NCBI GenBank assembly: GCA_964016885.1
Contig: OZ024745.1
Span: 109,430,001 to 109,494,000 of the forward strand
Direction of reading: 5' to 3'
Length of the DNA stretch: 64,000 bases
Source of the DNA: Eledone cirrhosa
Taxonomy: Eukaryota
Below, piece after piece: positions 3,653 through 30,040 of the stretch. Below the pieces are notes generated by a model that was not told the DNA's origin, did no database searches, and saw nothing but the letters and a program-made list of their open reading frames with translations. Every line of letters begins with the position of its first letter. Within the stretch, counting starts at the first letter, position 1. The translations under genes and the position numbers were made by a program.

Positions 3653-5660
<2,008 letters not shown>

Positions 5661-20095: not shown

Positions 20096-20350
20096 TCATC
20101 ATTTTATGTCCGCTTTTCCATGCTTGCAAGGGTGGGACGGGAACTGATTCTGGCTTGATTTCTACAGCTGGATGCCCTTCCTAACACCAACCTCATTTAC
20201 AGTGAGTGCTGGGTGCTTTTTTGCCGTGGCACCTCCACGACCACTTTGTAGTGGAATGATAGGGACCCCAGTCCTATCATCTCATTTCTATGGCTGAGTA
20301 AACTGGAGCAATGTGAAATAAAGTGTCTTGCTCAAGGAAACAACACATCA
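20096..20350 (-). mobile_element. SINE family A, head truncated
   Basis: Reverse complement of the adjacent copy at 20379-20718. Confidence 0.9.
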
Positions 20351-20378
20351 TATATATATACATCATATATATATATAT

Positions 20379-20715
20379 GGAGGCACATGGCTTAGTGTTT
20401 AGAGCATTGGCCTTGCAATCGAAAGGTTGTGAGTTCAATTCTCAGACCGGGTGATGTGTTGTTTCCTTGAGCAAGACACTTTATTTCAAATTGCTCCAAT
20501 TTACTCAGCTGTAGAAATGAGATGATAGAGAATGGGGTGCCTATCATTCCACTACAAAGTGGTCGTGGAGGTGCCACGGAAAAAAACACCCAGCACTCAC
20601 TGTAAATGAAGGTGGTGTTAGGAAGGGCATCCAGCTGTAGAAATCAAGCCAGAATCAGTTCCCGTCCCACCCTTGCAAGCAGGGAAAAGTGGACGTAAAA
20701 TGATGATGATGATGA

Positions 20716-20718
<3 letters not shown>
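20379..20718 (+). mobile_element. SINE family A, full length (tRNA head, core, RTE-type tail, (GAT)n)
   Basis: A-box TGGCTTAGTG, B-box GAGTTCAATTC; tail GGTGTTAGGAAGGGCATCCAGCTGTAGAAA...GGACGTAAAA(TGA)n shared with the RTE 3' end at 32760-32913. Confidence 0.9.
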
Positions 20719-20752
<34 letters not shown>

Positions 20753-20886
20753 CAATGAGTTATTTAATTTGTTGATTATTCAACAAATTTAGTTTATAAC
20801 AGATTAGAAGTACTCAACAGTTTTTCTTCTGGAGTATAATATCAATGATATTAAATAAATGGAAACTATCTTTATAAAACCATATT

Positions 20887-20947
20887 TATTTTATTATATA
20901 TATTTCAAGGGTACCAAAGTTTTGGTACGCGCTCATCAGATAAAATA
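20887..20947 (-). ncRNA. Minimal type-I hammerhead ribozyme motif
   Basis: TATTTTAT-CTGATGA-GCGCGTACCAAAACTTTGGTACCCTT-GAAA-T-ATAT-A-TA^-ATAAAATA; 8-bp stem I. Confidence 0.8.
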
Positions 20948-21063
20948 CAAAAGTTGGTTTACAGATAGTGACATATTCAGACAAGAACTTAATGTTGTAT
21001 TAAATAGAACTCACAACATTAAGTTCTTGTCTGAATATGTCACTATCTGTAAACCAACTTTTG

Positions 21064-21124
21064 TATTTTATCTGATGAGAGCGTACCAAAATGTTGGTAC
21101 CTTTGAAATATATATAATATAATA
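21064..21124 (+). ncRNA. Minimal type-I hammerhead ribozyme motif
   Basis: TATTTTAT-CTGATGA-GAGCGTACCAA-AATG-TTGGTACCTTT-GAAA-T-ATAT-A-TA^-ATATAATA; predicted cut after 21116. Confidence 0.8.
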
Positions 21125-21167
21125 AATATGGTTTTATAAAGATAGTTTCCATTTATTGATATTATTG

Positions 21168-21207
<40 letters not shown>

Positions 21208-21306
21208 TCCAAAAAGTTAAGACCCTCTTCCTGCTATTTCAAGCGTTAACCTAATATATTCCTTTCATATACTGTACCGATTGTGTTGTTATTTCTGTTT
21301 ACCTTT

Positions 21307-21338
<32 letters not shown>

Positions 21339-21399
21339 CGCGCGTGTGTGTGTGTGTGTGTTTATGTGTGTGTGTATTTACATATATATATATATAATA

Positions 21400-21603
21400 A
21401 AGTGGTCATGAAGGAGACCTCAGCCCACACTGTAAAAATGGCTGGTGTTAGGAAGGGCATCCAGGTGTAGAAAACCTGCCAGAAACAGTTCTGTACGAAC
21501 GAGACATGGTCACATGACCAATCTTGCCTCAAGTGGGACAAACCCGTCCAATACATACTAGCATAGAAGATGGACGTTAAACGATGATGATGATGATGAT
21601 GAT
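21400..21603 (+). mobile_element. RTE-type 3' tail fragment
   Basis: GGTGTTAGGAAGGGCATCCAG...TCTTGCCTCAAGTGGGA...GGACGTTAAACG(ATG)n, matching 32740-32913. Confidence 0.8.
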
Positions 21604-22141
21604 TATATAAGTATATGCACATACATGTATGAACTTCCAAACACATTCACATATGTGTATAAATATATCACATGGTAGTTGTTAGTGGAGGGCAGTCTAC
21701 AATATACAACTGTTTCTGCCAGGTGTACAAAGCTCAGCATTACGAAATATGGAGATGTTTACCTAAATAAGATATTTTAGAGTATTCGATCTGAAAGAGA
21801 ATGAAAAATAAAACAAAAGAAAAGATTGTAAAAAAGCAGTTTATAAACATAATGACAGTTTTATGAGATAAACTAACTCTACTAATAAGGTTAAACTGAA
21901 AGGAAACTACATAAAGGAAAGAAAAAAAACGAACAGATAAGACAAAATTGAGATTATAATTTTACAACAGAACTGAAAGATAATGAAAAAAAAAAAGGAA
22001 AGTGAACAGACGAAACAAAAAACGCCATGATAATCTTACAGAATTAGCTAATTTACAGATAAAATGGTATCTAACGGATTTTATTAATGTAGGTAGCTTT
22101 ACTAAAGTCCACCAGAGAAAATTAAATGTATTTAATGTGAT

Positions 22142-22191
<50 letters not shown>

Positions 22192-22406
22192 GTATGGGGT
22201 TAACTGAATAAGGATGTGCAGATCACATTATGCTCTGTCGGTTGTGAAACAGATAAAAAGAAGCGCTCAACGACCTGCATAAATGGTACGAATGGCCGCC
22301 GATTTTTTATATATATATATAAGGAAGGAATTGTGGTAAGGAACCAGATGGACCATAACGAACCAGAGTACTCAATACTTAGGGTAGTAGAGTGGAAAAT
22401 AGGAAA

Positions 22407-22513
22407 AAGTATGACCCCGACGGCAGAGCTCAAGCTGTTTCGACGGCTATTTCTTGACTAAATTAGAATTTTTAGCCTGGTGAATAAATAGCCGAACTTG
22501 TCAAGGGGTACTT
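22407..22513 (-). ncRNA. Type-I hammerhead motif in the Penelope pLTR with U3/A8 variant core
   Basis: AAGTA-CCCC-TTGACAA-G..CGGCTATTT..AAATAGCCG.C-GAAAC..GTC^-GGGG-TCA-TACTT. Confidence 0.7.
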
Positions 22514-23281
22514 CCTTATATGGGAAGATTGTAGTTGTCAAGAGGATTGGTTAAAATTTGTTGTAAACACAAATAAGTCTATCATGGCATTTGGTGGGAG
22601 GTAGGGGTGGCTGAACTTGCCTGTAGAACAATAGGGGAGTGAGTGGAGCCGGTCAAGCGTTGAAAGTGATATGTATACAGCAGATTCTAAGGATAGTGTA
22701 TGAAATGGAGGAGGGAGGTTATAGAATAGGTAATTCGAATGAGAGTAGGAGACAATAAAAGATAATAGAAAGAAATAAAAAAAATATATAAAATTAGAAA
22801 GTGAGAAATGAAGCTATCTTACAATTACAGGTTAATAAGTTGAGAATAGAAAAACATTGTAGAAATGGAGTAGTAACAAAAATGATACAAAATTAAAGGG
22901 GTCTAACACATCTGCTATAAATAGTTAGTAAAACGTATTCGGCCAATTCTATCTTAAAATTACAGGGGTGGGGGAACTGATGCTACATAGGCCCGATGAG
23001 CTGCATCGAGGTACGCGAAAGGGGAAAAGCAGACGAGGAAGAAAATAGGGGGTGGAAGGGAGTGATAGGATGAGACAGGGGGAAGAAGAAGACATAGAGG
23101 AAAAGAAAAGAGATACATCTACCTATGTAAGCTGGGATTTCCCTAACTTATTCGGCAAGTGTGTGTGTGTGGGGGGGGATATCAGCCCTTGTCTATCCAC
23201 CCGGGTCGTTATGGAGTTTGAGGGCGAGGTAAGTCCTACGCAATCTGTGTTTGCATACGGTTACCAGTTCGTCTTTCTTGT

Positions 23282-24546
23282 TTAGGAGTTGGTCCTTCGA
23301 AAACAACATTGTAATGTTTCCTCCGAGCATAAGTTACACGGACGGCGTCCTCCTGTGTAAGAGTTAGCTCTGGACAGTAAGCTCCAAGTGAGATTGTAGG
23401 TTATATTATTATCTTGGAGGGCCCAGATGTAGCCCGAAAGTGTAGTGACATGTCGCCGGACCGGGTTTCGGAAAGTATGTCGGTGATGGTAGAGCCGGGT
23501 CTTGAAGTCACAAGCGGTTAATCCTATATAAGCTTTGTTGGAGGTGTCCGTCCTCACGTTGCACTGGTAGATCACGTTACGTTCTCAGAATTTGTTGTTG
23601 AGGGGGCACGTAGATCTATCAAGGCAGTTACACCTCCTGGTCGGCTCTCCACTGATGTCTAGGTTGTTTCTTCCATAAGGGTTGAGTTTTTTGTTGTTTG
23701 AGGAGACGATGTTTTGTGCGAAGTTAGGTGTGGTGCTGTAGGAGAGTTAGATGGTGTTTTTGTAGATTCTGTTATGGTAGCGGTGTTGTAGTGGGAAGTG
23801 TTTTTCGAGGAGCCTAAAGAAGATTTTTCCGATAGGTGTTGGCACCTCGGCATTATGGGGAGGATTGAACCACGTTACGTTGCGTGAGCGGCGGTGTCGC
23901 CTGCTGGTTCCGTTAAGGGAAGCTGGATAAAAGGAAGTCACTCCGCTTGAGGGCTTGGTTGTAATGAGGCGCATATTCGTCGAATATCTGCTCATTAGCG
24001 GACAAACGAGATATGCGGAGGGAGATGTTTTTAACCAGGTTATTCGTGATGTTTCTAGGATGGTTAGAGCGGCGGTGGATGTAATGCAGGTTGTCGTTTG
24101 GTTTCCTGTATGTGTAGTACAGATCATTTTCGAGGTTAAGGGTAACGTCCAGGAAATTGACTCGGGTTAGGGACGTTTGTGAGGTGATTTTAAATCCCCA
24201 GTCCCGGAAGAAGTTGTTTACGGACCCGGTCTGTACTGCTGGGGTTCTACCCTTTGAGGATGAGGAGCCCATCATCCCGGTACAATCCACATTTCGGTGA
24301 GTTTAAATAGTAGGAATAATCCTATAAGATCTGTGACCTCGGCCGAATCCATCGGGCCCATACTGACGTCGAAGGGGGAGTCTGGAGCTCTCTTTATCTA
24401 CTTGGAGTTGTCGAAAAGTAGGACTGTCTTCCTGGCGTAGAGAATGATATTTCTTTCCTGGTCAGTGATGGGTGTGAGTGTTTCGGCAAAGACCAAGGCG
24501 GCCGTAAGGAACGGTAAGGTAATAGATGCATAGTAACTCTCTATGT
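23282..24546 (-). pseudogene. Disrupted PLE RT/GIY-YIG ORF with several frameshifts and stops
   Basis: Spread over ORF-track pieces 24398-24580, 23913-24290, 23747-24127 and 23282-23575. Confidence 0.9.
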
Positions 24547-24550
24547 GCAT

Positions 24551-24960
24551 AACACTCCCTGAAACATAAGTAATACACATGTAAAATTTGAAAAAGGTCG
24601 GTTGGGTTCTTCTCGAGTTTTAGGGATTCAAACTCACAGACACACACAGACACACAGACAGACATCCTCAGAGAAGTGACCTAGTGGGGACAGTCAGACA
24701 TACAGACAGATATTATAAGGGCGCGACGTTATATGTATGTATCTATCTAAAAAGAGAAAGACTAAGAATTATAGAGAGAGATCGCTAAATCACCTAATGC
24801 GGTCCCTAGGGAATTGAAAATTTAAAATTGTTTTTGCACAGAAAACACTCCCTGAAACATAAGTATTACATGTGTAAAGTTTGAAAACAGTCGGTTGGGT
24901 TCTTTTCGAGTTTTAGGGATTCAAACTCACACACACACAGACAGACATCCTCAGTTTTAT
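24551..24960. repeat. Duplicated unit of about 115 bp (24551-24670 / 24843-24955), possibly the end of a non-autonomous Helitron-like element
   Basis: AACACTCCCTGAAACATAAG...TCAAACTCACA(CAGA)nCATCCTCAG occurs twice, the second followed by TTTTATATATA; a similar end at about 25640-25730. Confidence 0.5.
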
Positions 24961-24963
24961 ATA

Positions 24964-25024
<61 letters not shown>

Positions 25025-25475
25025 TATATATATGAATGAAAAAATGGCGTGCTGTGTTGTTGCAAGTGTGATACATATGAATGGAAATAGAGTGAGTAAT
25101 GGGCCAGTACATCATCAGTGATCTTCTGACTATCATTGGTATTAACGAGAGAGAAAATGCATATAATTCAAAATCTGCAGTTATATTTACATAAAATTTA
25201 TCTTAAATCTTCTAATGTATGCAATGCATTGCATAAATATTTATTATTTAATATTTACACACACACATATAAACACACTGACACATACATGCTCATGAAC
25301 ATACATGCATCATCCTTTAATACCCATTATCGCTGCTACAAAATATACTCACCAGAATGTCAGAATGTATGTAAGATGCAGGCCCTGGGCCCATCTGAGA
25401 GGTCTGTGGCAGTGATTATGTGGTAGCCTTACTAGCAGGGAAAGCAAATGCGAAATGATAACACACACACACATA

Positions 25476-25547
<72 letters not shown>

Positions 25548-25871
25548 CGGTTGAGTCACAATTTCAGTTGAATGAGGATTATCTCCTGTCCCTTAAAACA
25601 ATATTGGTCCAAGTTTGAGGACAACCTATAGTTAAGTCTAAGGACCTTACATGACAAGTTTGAACATGATTGGTTTACTGGTTTTTGAGTGCATTGGTAA
25701 CAAACAAACAGAAAAGCAATTTTATATATATATATATATATATATATGTAGGAGGTGAGTTTTATTGTAGTACAATAAAGCAATGCAGATATCGGATAAG
25801 AAGCACTCTACAGTTTGTAGGACTGGAGTATACATAATATAAGATCAAAAGATGGTTAAAGGAGTTCCATG

Positions 25872-25942
25872 TATTTTATTATGCGCATTTCAAAAACAAA
25901 CATCATCATGCAATAATATTTGTGTTTTCATCAGATAAAACA
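25872..25942 (-). ncRNA. Minimal type-I hammerhead ribozyme motif
   Basis: Exact reverse complement of 26062-26132. Confidence 0.85.
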
Positions 25943-26061
25943 GGAGAACATGATATGAAGGCCAAAAAAACACTTGTGGATAGTGCAGTTGATATGTTGA
26001 TATGTTGATTTAAAACTGCACTATCCACAAGTGTTTTTTTGGCCTTCATATCATGTTCTCC

Positions 26062-26132
26062 TGTTTTATCTGATGAAAACACAAATATTATTGCATGATG
26101 ATGTTTGTTTTTGAAATGCGCATAATAAAATA
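26062..26132 (+). ncRNA. Minimal type-I hammerhead ribozyme motif with palindromic GCGC loop 3
   Basis: TGTTTTAT-CTGATGA-AAACACAAATAT..ATGTTTGTTTTT-GAAA-T-GCGC-A-TA^-ATAAAATA; predicted cut after 26124. Confidence 0.85.
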
Positions 26133-26500
26133 CATGGAACTCCTTTAACCATCTTTTGATCTTATATTATATATATATATATATATATGTATGTATGATC
26201 CCATAACTTCTGATAGAGTCGTAGGGGTTTCTTGGTCATTTTAAGCCTGGCAGAGCCCACTCCTCTCCAGGCCTGAGTACAGCAGATTTCTTCCAGGGAA
26301 AGATAGAAAGTGAGAGAGAGGAAATGAGAAAGAGATATAGAGGAAGAATCGACCCCAGTATTAGACTGGTACTTTTTTTATCAACCTTGAAGGGTTGAAA
26401 GGCGAAGTTGATGTCAGTGGGACTTGAACTCAGCGACCAGCGAGCTGGAATGAATACCATAAAGTATTCTATCTGACATTCTAATGACCCTGCCAATTTA

Positions 26501-26630
26501 CCGTCGAAACAGCTTGAGCTCTGCCGTCGGGGTAAAACAAACATTTTCCTATTACCCACTTTACTACCCTAAGTATTGAGTACTCTGGTGCGTTATGGTC
26601 CACCTGGTTCTTTACCACATTTCCTTCGTT
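26501..26630 (+). mobile_element. Solo 3' piece of the Neptune pLTR (3' half of the hammerhead only)
   Basis: CCGTCGAAACAGCTTGAGCTCTGCCGTCGGGG...GTATTGAGTACTCTGG...TTCCTTCGT(TA)n, reverse complement of 22321-22446. Confidence 0.85.
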
Positions 26631-26631
26631 A

Positions 26632-26677
<46 letters not shown>

Positions 26678-26864
26678 GAAGTTATATTTAATTTGTTGGG
26701 ATACAACAAGCAAATATTTTTATAACTGATATAAAGCACTCAACACATTTTTGGAGTAAAAATACAATATATTAACAAATGGAAACTATCCGGGAGCTTC
26801 CAACCGACATGGTCGCATTCTTTAAGGGTATGTCAATATTTGTTTATAAAACTGATCTATATTA

Positions 26865-26929
26865 TATTTTATCTGATGAAAGCGCACCATAATTTGCTTT
26901 GGTGTCCTTGAAATATGTATAATGAAATA
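26865..26929 (+). ncRNA. Minimal type-I hammerhead ribozyme motif
   Basis: TATTTTAT-CTGATGA-AAGCGCACCA..TGGTGTCCTT-GAAA-T-ATGT-A-TA^-ATGAAATA. Confidence 0.8.
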
Positions 26930-26967
26930 AATTTGGTTTTATAAATAAAGTTTCCATTTGTTACTAT

Positions 26968-27007
<40 letters not shown>

Positions 27008-27134
27008 AAAGTTCTATTTAAATTGTTGGGATACAACAAGCAAATATTTTTATAACTGATATAAAGCACTCAACAAATATTTGGAGTAAAAATACGATAT
27101 TAACAAATGGAAACTATATTTATAAAACCATATT

Positions 27135-27199
27135 TATTTGATTATACATATTTCAAGGACACCAAGTTAAATTATGGTGTGCTTTCATCAGATAAAATA
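27135..27199 (-). ncRNA. Minimal type-I hammerhead ribozyme motif
   Basis: TATTTTAT-CTGATGA-AAGCACACCA..TGGTGTCCTT-GAAA-T-ATGT-A-TA^-ATCAAATA. Confidence 0.75.
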
Positions 27200-27264
27200 T
27201 AGATCAGTTTTATAAATAAATATTGACATACCCTTAAAGAATGCAACCATTACTGTTGGAAGTA

Positions 27265-27295
<31 letters not shown>

Positions 27296-27476
27296 CCCTG
27301 TCAATTCACCTTATATATATATACATATAGGAAAAGAGTCAGGACCTTGATGGCTGAGCTCTGGCCATTTTGACAGCTAGAGAGAGAGACAGCTAGAGAG
27401 AGAGAGATAGATAGAGAGAGAGAGAGACTGGGAGTTACCAGCTTAGTACTCGATACAATATATCTATATAGATACA

Positions 27477-29514: not shown

Positions 29515-29852
29515 TCATCATCATCATCATCATCATTTTACGTCCGCTTTCCCTGCTTGCAAGGGTGGGACGGGAACTGATTCTGGCTTGATTTCTACAG
29601 CTGGATGCCCTTCCTAACACCAACCTCATTTACAGTGAGTGCTGGGTGCTTTTTTTCCGTGGCACCTCCACGACCACTTTGCAGTGGAATGATAGGGACC
29701 CCAGTCCCTATCATCTCATTTCTACAGCTGAGTAAACTGGAGAATGTGAAATAAAGTGTCTTGCTCAAGGAAACAACACATCACCCAGTCTGAGAATTGA
29801 ACTCACAATCTTTCGATTGCAAGGCCAATGCTCTAACCACTAAGCCATGTCA
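29515..29852 (-). mobile_element. SINE family A, full length
   Basis: Near-identical reverse complement of 45420-45745. Confidence 0.9.
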
Positions 29853-30040
29853 CCCGTTCCATATAACCATGTCCATTACAAGCTGAGGATCTGCTAAGGT
29901 GAAACAATTGTTCTCTGTATGGTGAACTAACTGTTGTGTAACCACTTCTACCTAACTCGTCCCATGGACTGAGTGCTCTACCACTACGGATATTACCTTC
30001 CAGTGTTCTACCACTATATATATATATATATATATATATA

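What the first reader, a model, noticed from the sequence alone, without database searches (positions are those of the whole stretch)
20751..27263. (TA)n-anchored fold-back mini-elements with a minimal hammerhead ribozyme on each strand
Seen: six motifs share the grammar stemI(8 bp)-CTGATGA-stemII-GAAA-T-NNNN-A-TA^-stemI' (20887-20947 -, 21064-21124 +, 25872-25942 -, 26062-26132 +, 26865-26929 +, 27135-27199 -). Stem II differs completely between families yet still pairs (GTACCAA/TTGGTAC, GCACCA/TGGTGT, ACAAATAT/ATGTTTGT) and always has a C mismatch at the fourth position. Loop 3 is ATAT, GCGC or ATGT. They occur as inverted pairs in non-coding units of about 0.4-0.6 kb between (TA)n tracts, on both sides of a Neptune-type PLE. 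Established: PLE pseudo-LTRs carry minimal type-I hammerheads whose palindromic loop 3 supports dimeric cleavage, and PLEs form inverted pLTRs. Inference: a non-autonomous, retrozyme-like PLE parasite that targets microsatellites and places a ribozyme in transcripts from either strand; a read-through transcript would form a ~160-bp hairpin that sequesters the ribozyme.
Basis: partly seen in the sequence, partly recalled or inferred. Interest (0 to 1): 0.9.

Follow-up and report, generated by a model that had tools for sequence, protein, structure and literature searches.

The report
Fold-back ends of Hydra Penelope retrotransposons
The short hairpin units with a hammerhead ribozyme motif on each strand are real, but they are the end repeats of ordinary protein-coding Penelope-like jumping genes that left tens of thousands of such copies in this genome, and their uniform ends likely record how these elements copy themselves.

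Summary
All six hammerhead motifs are present. A pattern built from them matches 56,514 places in the genome, against 0 for the control. They are not a separate parasite. Units A, B and C are the end repeats (pseudo-LTRs) of three Penelope-like (PLE) families. B and C lie on both sides of RT plus GIY-YIG-like ORFs in natural full-length copies; A is joined to an ORF C-terminus. Family B's motifs are those of the Hydra clade, not Neptune. Short and long copies interleave on a tree. Inverted copy, tail, (TA)n target and opposite-strand hammerheads are all in print, and the scan noted this architecture twice before in shark genomes. Corrections: only two of the three pairs are fold-backs; the PLE between them is a fourth family with its own, missed U3-A8 hammerhead; one cut site is off by one. 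Not found in the papers searched: 52 of 54 fold-backs pair one tail-plus with one tail-minus arm; either arm may be longer; short arms stop at a fixed Inr-like base, often with an extra G; 0 of 100 copies end at the ribozyme cut. This points to two cDNAs primed on uncleaved, capped RNA. Cleavage and expression are untested.

The parts
20751..20998 (-). Family A tail-plus arm (pseudo-LTR copy); sense is the - strand; outer end joined to (TA)n 20718-20750
   Evidence: linked through a 1.3-kb 3' region to a Hydra-type ORF C-terminus in L100-L102 and L104
20887..20947 (-). Type-I hammerhead, family A, loop 3 ATAT, stem I 8/8; predicted cut after 20895
   Evidence: cut position inferred from the hammerhead grammar
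21013..21176 (+). Family A tail-minus inverted arm (lacks the first 84 nt), ending in (TA)n
21064..21124 (+). Type-I hammerhead, family A, stem I 7/8; predicted cut after 21117
22308..24546 (-). 5'-truncated, decayed Hydra-type PLE of a fourth family (D); 41-48% aa identity to the family B ORF in its four long matches; same tail-plus (22308) and tail-minus (22399) ends in other copies
22414..22509 (-).
   Evidence: motif found in all 20 loci L253-L272; core variant as in PMC4209133
25748..25990 (-). Family B tail-plus arm; outer end joined to (TA)n 25723-25747
25872..25942 (-). Type-I hammerhead, family B, loop 3 GCGC; predicted cut after 25880
26001..26175 (+). Family B tail-minus arm, beginning at the fixed 5' stop (ATATG, 254 nt from the tail end), preceded by a G at 26000
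26062..26132 (+). Type-I hammerhead, family B; predicted cut after 26124
26484..26630 (+). Short 3' fragment of family D (second half of its hammerhead plus tail) ending in (TA)n
26675..26974 (.). Family C fold-back: tail-plus arm of 113 nt (no ribozyme) and tail-minus arm 88-277 starting at ACTATCC
26865..26929 (+). Type-I hammerhead, family C, loop 3 ATGT; predicted cut after 26921
27005..27262 (-). Separate solo family C tail-plus copy between two (TA)n tracts
   Evidence: full-length tandem copy with frameshifted ORF in L099
27135..27199 (-). Type-I hammerhead, family C, stem I 7/8; predicted cut after 27143

Best explanation
The units are the hammerhead-bearing end repeats (pseudo-LTRs) of protein-coding Hydra-type Penelope-like retrotransposons, and each short fold-back is likely the product of two separately primed cDNAs copied from an uncleaved, capped RNA of the element. 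Shown: the family B unit lies directly upstream of an 821-codon open frame with RT and GIY-YIG-like motifs and again at its 3' end (unit length 3686 nt). Insertions sit in (TA)n. Arms start at one of two fixed sites about 85 nt apart, one site per arm. Short arms stop at one fixed base. Inferred: the endonuclease cuts both strands of a (TA)n target; RT starts at the two internal sites, one on each strand; each cDNA runs toward the RNA 5' end, stops at the cap at the latest (adding a base opposite it), and the two cDNA ends are joined head to head by microhomology or end joining. Starting on a long RNA gives the kilobase palindromes by the same route. The hammerhead is a passenger in these copies: likely inactive as a monomer, and not used to make the template end.
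For: Full-length copies L157 and L170 with flanking B units. Family C full-length copy L099; family A linked to an ORF end. Hydra motifs RW(T), DKT, CxCX5C, CxxC-E, N..CxH present and CCHH absent. 52 of 54 inverted B pairs hold one tail-plus and one tail-minus arm. Of 27 pairs with both arms of 245 nt or more, the tail-minus arm is the longer in 7 and the tail-plus arm clearly longer in 4; in L242 the arms (1-78, 87-254) do not overlap. In the position-ordered C1 sample, 18 of 36 B arms end at 250-255 (counted by eye, two duplicate rows and two upstream pLTRs left out). G precedes the stop in 14 of 24 B arms ending exactly at 254 against 9 of 105 at other ends, and in 50 of the 100 listed of 2,059 genome-wide truncations (by eye); the template base is C. 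An extra 5' G reflects capping in L1 insertions (PMC11702581, passage). All 100 listed of 8,933 copies run through the predicted cut site (by eye). Arms of one insertion differ by 0.7% against 4.1% between loci. 17 of 19 short pairs share no private mutation. In vitro, a PLE starts RT at two adjacent internal sites, extends both strands and uses uncleaved RNA (PMC11167929).
Against: Of 93 upstream pseudo-LTRs, only 1 stops at the cap site and 2 stop within about 6 nt of it; 90 run on (by eye). One linear capped mRNA therefore cannot be the template of all copies. No RNA data were obtained, so the start site is inferred from DNA only. Some G's may belong to the other arm (which can end in ...CATATG). 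The G signature is confounded in family A, where one subfamily has a templated G, and rests on 2 of 3 arms in family C. 'Other' ends include alignment breaks, and long arms broken by indels are under-counted. Arm similarity could partly come from conversion between inverted repeats. Pfam found no domain in the ORF, so RT/GIY-YIG rests on motif reading and on conservation among 7 aligned homologues. No tree with reference Hydra sequences was built.
Confidence: 0.8

Rival explanations
1. The short class is mobilised in trans from short capped RNAs that start in the many 3' pseudo-LTRs, or in the minis themselves, making a SINE-like non-autonomous population. This is a softened form of the first reader's view.
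For: Only 1 of 93 upstream pLTRs ends at the cap site, and short arms pair with short arms (24 short-short, 26 long, 4 mixed), which suggests two RNA classes. In Penelope the 3' pseudo-LTR holds the sequences needed for transcription in the carcass (PMC2377424, Discussion). Two short pairs (L043, L058) share 3 and 5 private mutations. The short label is clustered on the tree more than in shuffles (17 vs 24.7).
Against: 17 of 19 short pairs share no private mutation. Short and long copies are identical in 6 sets and interleave. Junctions differ between loci except at short palindromes. Long copies were partly picked by identity to one ORF probe, which by itself clusters the labels.
Confidence: 0.25
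2. Fold-backs form by snap-back self-priming of a single cDNA, or on an antisense template as proposed for rotifer PLEs.
For: Several junctions are perfect palindromes centred on CATATG; arms are near-identical; the model is in print (PMC3846280, passages).
Against: A copy of a tail-plus cDNA cannot be longer than its template, yet the tail-minus arm is the longer in 7 of 27 pairs and does not overlap the other arm in L242. A tail-minus first cDNA cannot supply the tail. Junctions such as ...CAACATAT-C-AT-G-ATATG... carry an extra G on both arms, which points to a sense, capped template.
Confidence: 0.07
3. The units are animal retrozymes: hammerhead-processed circular RNAs that amplify as their own family.
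For: Size (250-430 nt), type-I hammerhead and palindromic loop 3 fit; retrozymes are related to PLE pLTRs (bioRxiv 10.64898/2026.07.22.740005).
Against: No head-to-tail repeats of the short unit were seen in the 90 loci; 0 of 100 copies end at the cut site; each strand of a mini holds one sense ribozyme, so a monomer could not be cut out.
Confidence: 0.04
4. The palindromes are assembly or library artefacts.
For: Long perfect palindromes are a known artefact class (recalled).
Against: Arms differ in sequence and end at family-specific fixed sites in dozens of loci. Separately assembled contigs from public runs show joints from arms of many lengths to 26000-26002 (the runs may be the sample the genome came from).
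Confidence: 0.02

Closest known systems
Hydra clade of C-terminal EN+ Penelope-like elements (Craig et al. 2021, PMC8557442; includes Hydra-1_Obim and Penelope-13_HM)
   Same: RW, DKT, CxCX5C linker, CxxC and CxH around the conserved E and N, no CCHH; (TA)n target; hammerhead near the 3' end. Penelope-13_HM has a 5'-truncated inverted copy and a hammerhead listed on both strands (supplement).
   Different: Unit of 3.7 kb (most Hydra are under 3 kb); RWT for RWK in family B; tail of 84-91 nt against 30-40 bp; hammerhead sequence differs from Hydra-1_Obim, with a longer stem II and a C mismatch.
Minimal hammerheads in PLE pseudo-LTRs (Cervera and de la Pena 2014, PMC4209133)
   Same: Long stem II, short palindromic stem III read as a dimer ribozyme; dual motifs 100-700 bp apart on opposite strands, ascribed to truncated PLEs; U3-A8 core variant.
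   Different: Closing pair of stem II is A-U or G-U rather than G10.1-C11.1; 2-bp stem III with a tetraloop; tens of thousands of copies.
PAc (Poseidon from Anolis) in vitro mechanism (Frangieh et al. 2024, PMC11167929)
   Same: Two internal RT start sites that define the tail; both strands cleaved and extended; AT-rich target; uncleaved RNA is the substrate.
   Different: In PAc the sites lie inside the ORF; here they lie in the 5' leader, about 50-80 nt before the first ATG codons. In the sections read, that paper does not treat the genomic pairing of the two ends or a cap stop.
Animal non-LTR retrozymes (PMC7229834; bioRxiv 10.64898/2026.07.22.740005)
   Same: Short, non-coding, type-I hammerhead, related to PLE pLTRs.
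   Different: Retrozymes are head-to-tail tandem repeats processed to circles; these are solo or head-to-head copies continuous with ORF-bearing elements.
L1 twin priming
   Same: Two RT reactions primed on opposite ends of the target break and joined by microhomology; extra G at capped 5' ends (PMC11702581, passages).
   Different: In L1 the second priming is at a variable internal site; here both starts are fixed and adjacent, so the arms are near-complete inverted repeats.

Membership tests
Hydra-clade PLE | Single ORF with RT and C-terminal GIY-YIG endonuclease | tested here: met
   821-codon open frame in L157 and L170; RT and IY..YFG motifs conserved with 7 homologues. Pfam gave no hit. 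Family C ORF is frameshifted; for A only the C-terminus was seen.
Hydra-clade PLE | DKG modified to DKT; RWK motif | tested here: met
   HSDKTNN; RLRWT in B, RIRWR in C; definition
Hydra-clade PLE | CxCX5C linker, CxxC and CxH around E and N, CCHH absent | tested here: met
   CNCRIKNKC, CNLCLNE, NRR..CLH in B; CNCRNKSNC in C and CNCLDRSTC in D
Hydra-clade PLE | Insertion into (TA)n; hammerhead near the 3' end | tested here: met
   outer flanks; motifs
Hydra-clade PLE | Placement in the Hydra clade on an RT tree | not tested
Neptune-clade PLE | CX2-5CxxC linker and CCHH motif in the endonuclease | tested here: not met
   linker is CxCX5C and no CCHH is seen in B; same linker in the window's PLE
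EN+ PLE insertion architecture | Partial tandem pLTR, adjacent inverted 5'-truncated copy, tail at one end only | tested here: met
   definition
Type-I hammerhead ribozyme | Conserved core with stems I-III | tested here: met
   (core and part of stem I are fixed by the pattern; stem II and loop 3 are not)
Type-I hammerhead ribozyme | Self-cleavage | not testable with these tools
   needs in vitro transcription
Non-LTR retrozyme | Head-to-tail tandem repeats of the short unit, one ribozyme each | tested here: not met
   none seen among 90 loci; tandem copies seen are of the whole 3.66-kb element
Non-LTR retrozyme | Own lineage without coding capacity | tested here: not met
   short and ORF-bearing copies interleave; sampling biased, so secondary amplification of some minis is not excluded
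Non-LTR retrozyme | Expressed as linear and circular monomer RNA | not testable with these tools
   no RNA run was available

The most novel reading that the evidence does not exclude
This genome records two PLE template classes. Short capped RNAs from the pseudo-LTR promoter are twin-primed in trans into head-to-head minis that can themselves be transcribed outward and re-copied, a SINE-like population with no sequence of its own. Long copies and multi-unit concatemers (one insertion holds 5.1 units that are 99.7-99.97% identical) come from read-through or hammerhead-circularised RNA. That would explain how PLE inverted pLTRs and tails form and what the ribozyme is for.
Probability: 0.2. Interest if true: 0.75.

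Novelty: new member of a known kind. Interest (0 to 1): 0.42.

Why it matters
As a class the finding is known. Its value is as a natural experiment: how PLEs form inverted pseudo-LTRs and tails, and what their hammerheads do, are stated open questions (PMC8557442, PMC11167929, PMC2377424). Here young, very abundant families give sharp predictions: two RT start sites, one used per strand; a capped start 254 nt from the tail end; no use of cleaved linear RNA. An open 821-codon frame makes these testable in vitro in a clade with no biochemistry in the papers read. Tens of thousands of perfect hairpins and pseudo-LTR promoters may also matter for double-stranded RNA, RNA editing and small RNA production in the host (inference, untested).

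Tried and rejected
Rfam scan of the window: 263 matches, the 150 shown are all microRNA-family chance hits below gathering score; no hammerhead among them. Pfam on the ORF and on four homologues: nothing above cut-off. PDB sequence search: nothing significant. Sequencing runs: no RNA holder listed, so nothing is said on expression; four contig sets were laid instead, which cannot show starts or strands. Cap-G test in family A: confounded by a templated G in one subfamily. Circular-template idea: fits the 5-unit concatemer on C6, but in L158 both outer pseudo-LTRs share a deletion that both inner ones lack, which fits a linear read-through template; left open. The window's PLE as parent of the minis: rejected, no DNA similarity. 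A protein alignment with frameshifted copies was not obtained; tblastn was used. Literature: six searches found no paper with the cap-G stop or the one-tail-per-fold-back count; the library lacks most subscription papers, and bioRxiv supplements were not seen. PMC7353768 held no usable passage. Scan notes for this genome: none.
Full report
OBSERVATION. The six motifs are at the stated places. A strict descriptor finds 3 of them and 0 in 100 shuffles; the other 3 fail on single mismatches. An exact pattern built from them has 56,514 matches in the 3.0-Gb genome and 0 for the reversed control. In 101 matches from the first 12 Mb of contig C1, the parts not fixed by the pattern behave as structure: stem II positions 5-10 pair 88% against 64% shuffled, with different pair types between families; position 4 is never paired (0 of 56 distinct sequences); loop 3 is self-complementary in 96 of 101. 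Among family B copies found by DNA search, core bases vary 1.1% and flanks 2.9%. Corrections: stem I is 7/8 in two copies; the family A cut is after 21117; the third 'pair' is two insertions facing each other across (TA)n.

WHAT THE UNITS ARE. Searches with units A, B and C return dispersed copies at about 90-99% identity (only 40 candidates scored each). Many run further inward. Longer B and C copies lead into ORFs, and L091 is a 5-kb palindrome. L157 is a 9-kb palindrome of two full-length B elements: an 821-codon open frame with the unit directly upstream and again at the 3' end, unit length 3686 nt. L099 is the same layout for C, with a frameshifted ORF; A is linked to an ORF C-terminus through 1.3 kb of shared sequence. 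The B protein has RT motifs, RWT, DKT, CxCX5C, CxxC-E, N..CxH and no CCHH, which are the Hydra-clade characters; its homologues keep them. The PLE at 22308-24546 is a fourth family (D) with the same linker, the same two outer ends (91 nt apart) and its own U3-A8 hammerhead. All four share (TA)n targets, which likely explains why they cluster. The host was not identified; one named homologue is from Argonauta (37% identity).

NOT A SEPARATE LINEAGE. On a tree of 86 B arms (51 short, 35 long or upstream; 27 intermediate arms left out) the label needs 17 changes, 9 forced by starred branches, and 6 sets of identical rows span both groups. The label is still more clustered than in shuffles (mean 24.7), which paired arms and my way of picking long copies would cause. 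17 of 19 short pairs share no private mutation; L043 and L058 share 3 and 5.

HOW IT LIKELY WORKS. Outer ends fall at position 1 or about 87 (B), 85 (A) and 88 (C). 52 of 54 inverted B pairs have one of each. Either arm may be longer, and in L242 the arms do not overlap, which a snap-back of one cDNA cannot give. Inner ends pile up at one base: 18 of 36 B arms in the position-ordered sample end at 250-255 (by eye), and A and C peak near 264 and 277. All three sites are the A of a CA step in an Inr-like context (consensus recalled; a TCACT Inr-like motif is reported in a rotifer pLTR). In B a non-templated G precedes the stop in 14 of 24 arms against 9 of 105 elsewhere and in 50 of 100 listed genome-wide cases (T 39, A 11; by eye). 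An extra G marks capping in L1 insertions. None of 100 listed copies ends at the ribozyme cut. I infer two cDNAs primed on opposite target strands from two internal start sites of an uncleaved, capped RNA, as the PAc biochemistry suggests, joined head to head. The start sites sit at the centre of a mini and face outward, so its own transcripts would be single arms; only read-through RNA would form the predicted hairpin and it would hold one sense ribozyme.

AGAINST OR UNEXPLAINED. 90 of 93 upstream pseudo-LTRs run past the cap site, and the one that stops there is not a full-length copy. Long copies therefore need another template. A 5.1-unit concatemer with 99.7-99.97% identical units fits a circle, repeated template jumps or later expansion; L158 fits a linear read-through RNA. 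No RNA evidence was obtained.

WHAT IS KNOWN. Craig 2021 (PMC8557442; passages, section 11, supplement part 2) describes the inverted 5'-truncated copy, the tail, (TA)n targeting, Hydra hammerheads, an Octopus Hydra family, and Penelope-13_HM with a ribozyme on both strands. Cervera and de la Pena 2014 (PMC4209133; parts 1-2 of 4) report dual opposite-strand motifs 100-700 bp apart and the U3-A8 variant. Frangieh 2024 (PMC11167929; parts 1-2 of 4). Li 2026 preprint (parts 1-3 of 5, supplements not seen). Cervera 2020 (PMC7229834; passages). Arkhipova 2013 (PMC3846280; passages). Schostak 2008 (PMC2377424; abstract and Discussion). PMC11702581 (passages). Two earlier scan notes describe the same architecture in shark genomes; they were seen after my reading was formed and are not support.

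VERDICT. Real feature; new families of a known clade in a known architecture. The non-autonomous parasite reading is not supported as stated. The end-mapping adds a testable mechanism that six searches did not find in print. Interest 0.42.

Noticed in passing
window 22414-22509 (-); L253-L272: Family D hammerhead with U3-A8 core and a 5-bp stem III, which might work as a monomer; the window copy has a stem III mismatch
   Followed up: partly
G000:C6:38068882-38089517 (L273-L275): One family B insertion made of a 1.9-kb tail-minus arm and an inverted arm of five full units plus 481 nt; units 99.7-99.97% identical
   Followed up: partly
L157 (G000:C1:111375800-111385799): 9-kb palindrome of two full-length family B elements; one ORF is open for 821 codons
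   Followed up: yes
L158: Both outer pseudo-LTRs share a short deletion that both inner ones lack
   Followed up: partly
L189, L176, L168: Long arms end at 3683, 3680 and about 3618, just short of the upstream RT start site; a possible second stop site
   Followed up: no
window 20096-20706 and 29548-29865: Another inverted-repeat unit (arms 127 and 77 nt, nested) of a different repeat, with a second copy 9 kb away
   Followed up: no
window 27340-27375: Short piece resembling the second half of a family D-type hammerhead with a different stem III
   Followed up: no
window 24548-24947: Direct repeat of about 106 nt just inside the 5' end of the family D copy, also present in other loci
   Followed up: no
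L162 and L170: Near-perfect 310-bp tandem array next to family B copies
   Followed up: no
L177-L247: At least two further hammerhead families of the same grammar (stem II beginning GGACGTACTG and AGGCATACCA), with Hydra-like ORF ends upstream in some copies
   Followed up: partly
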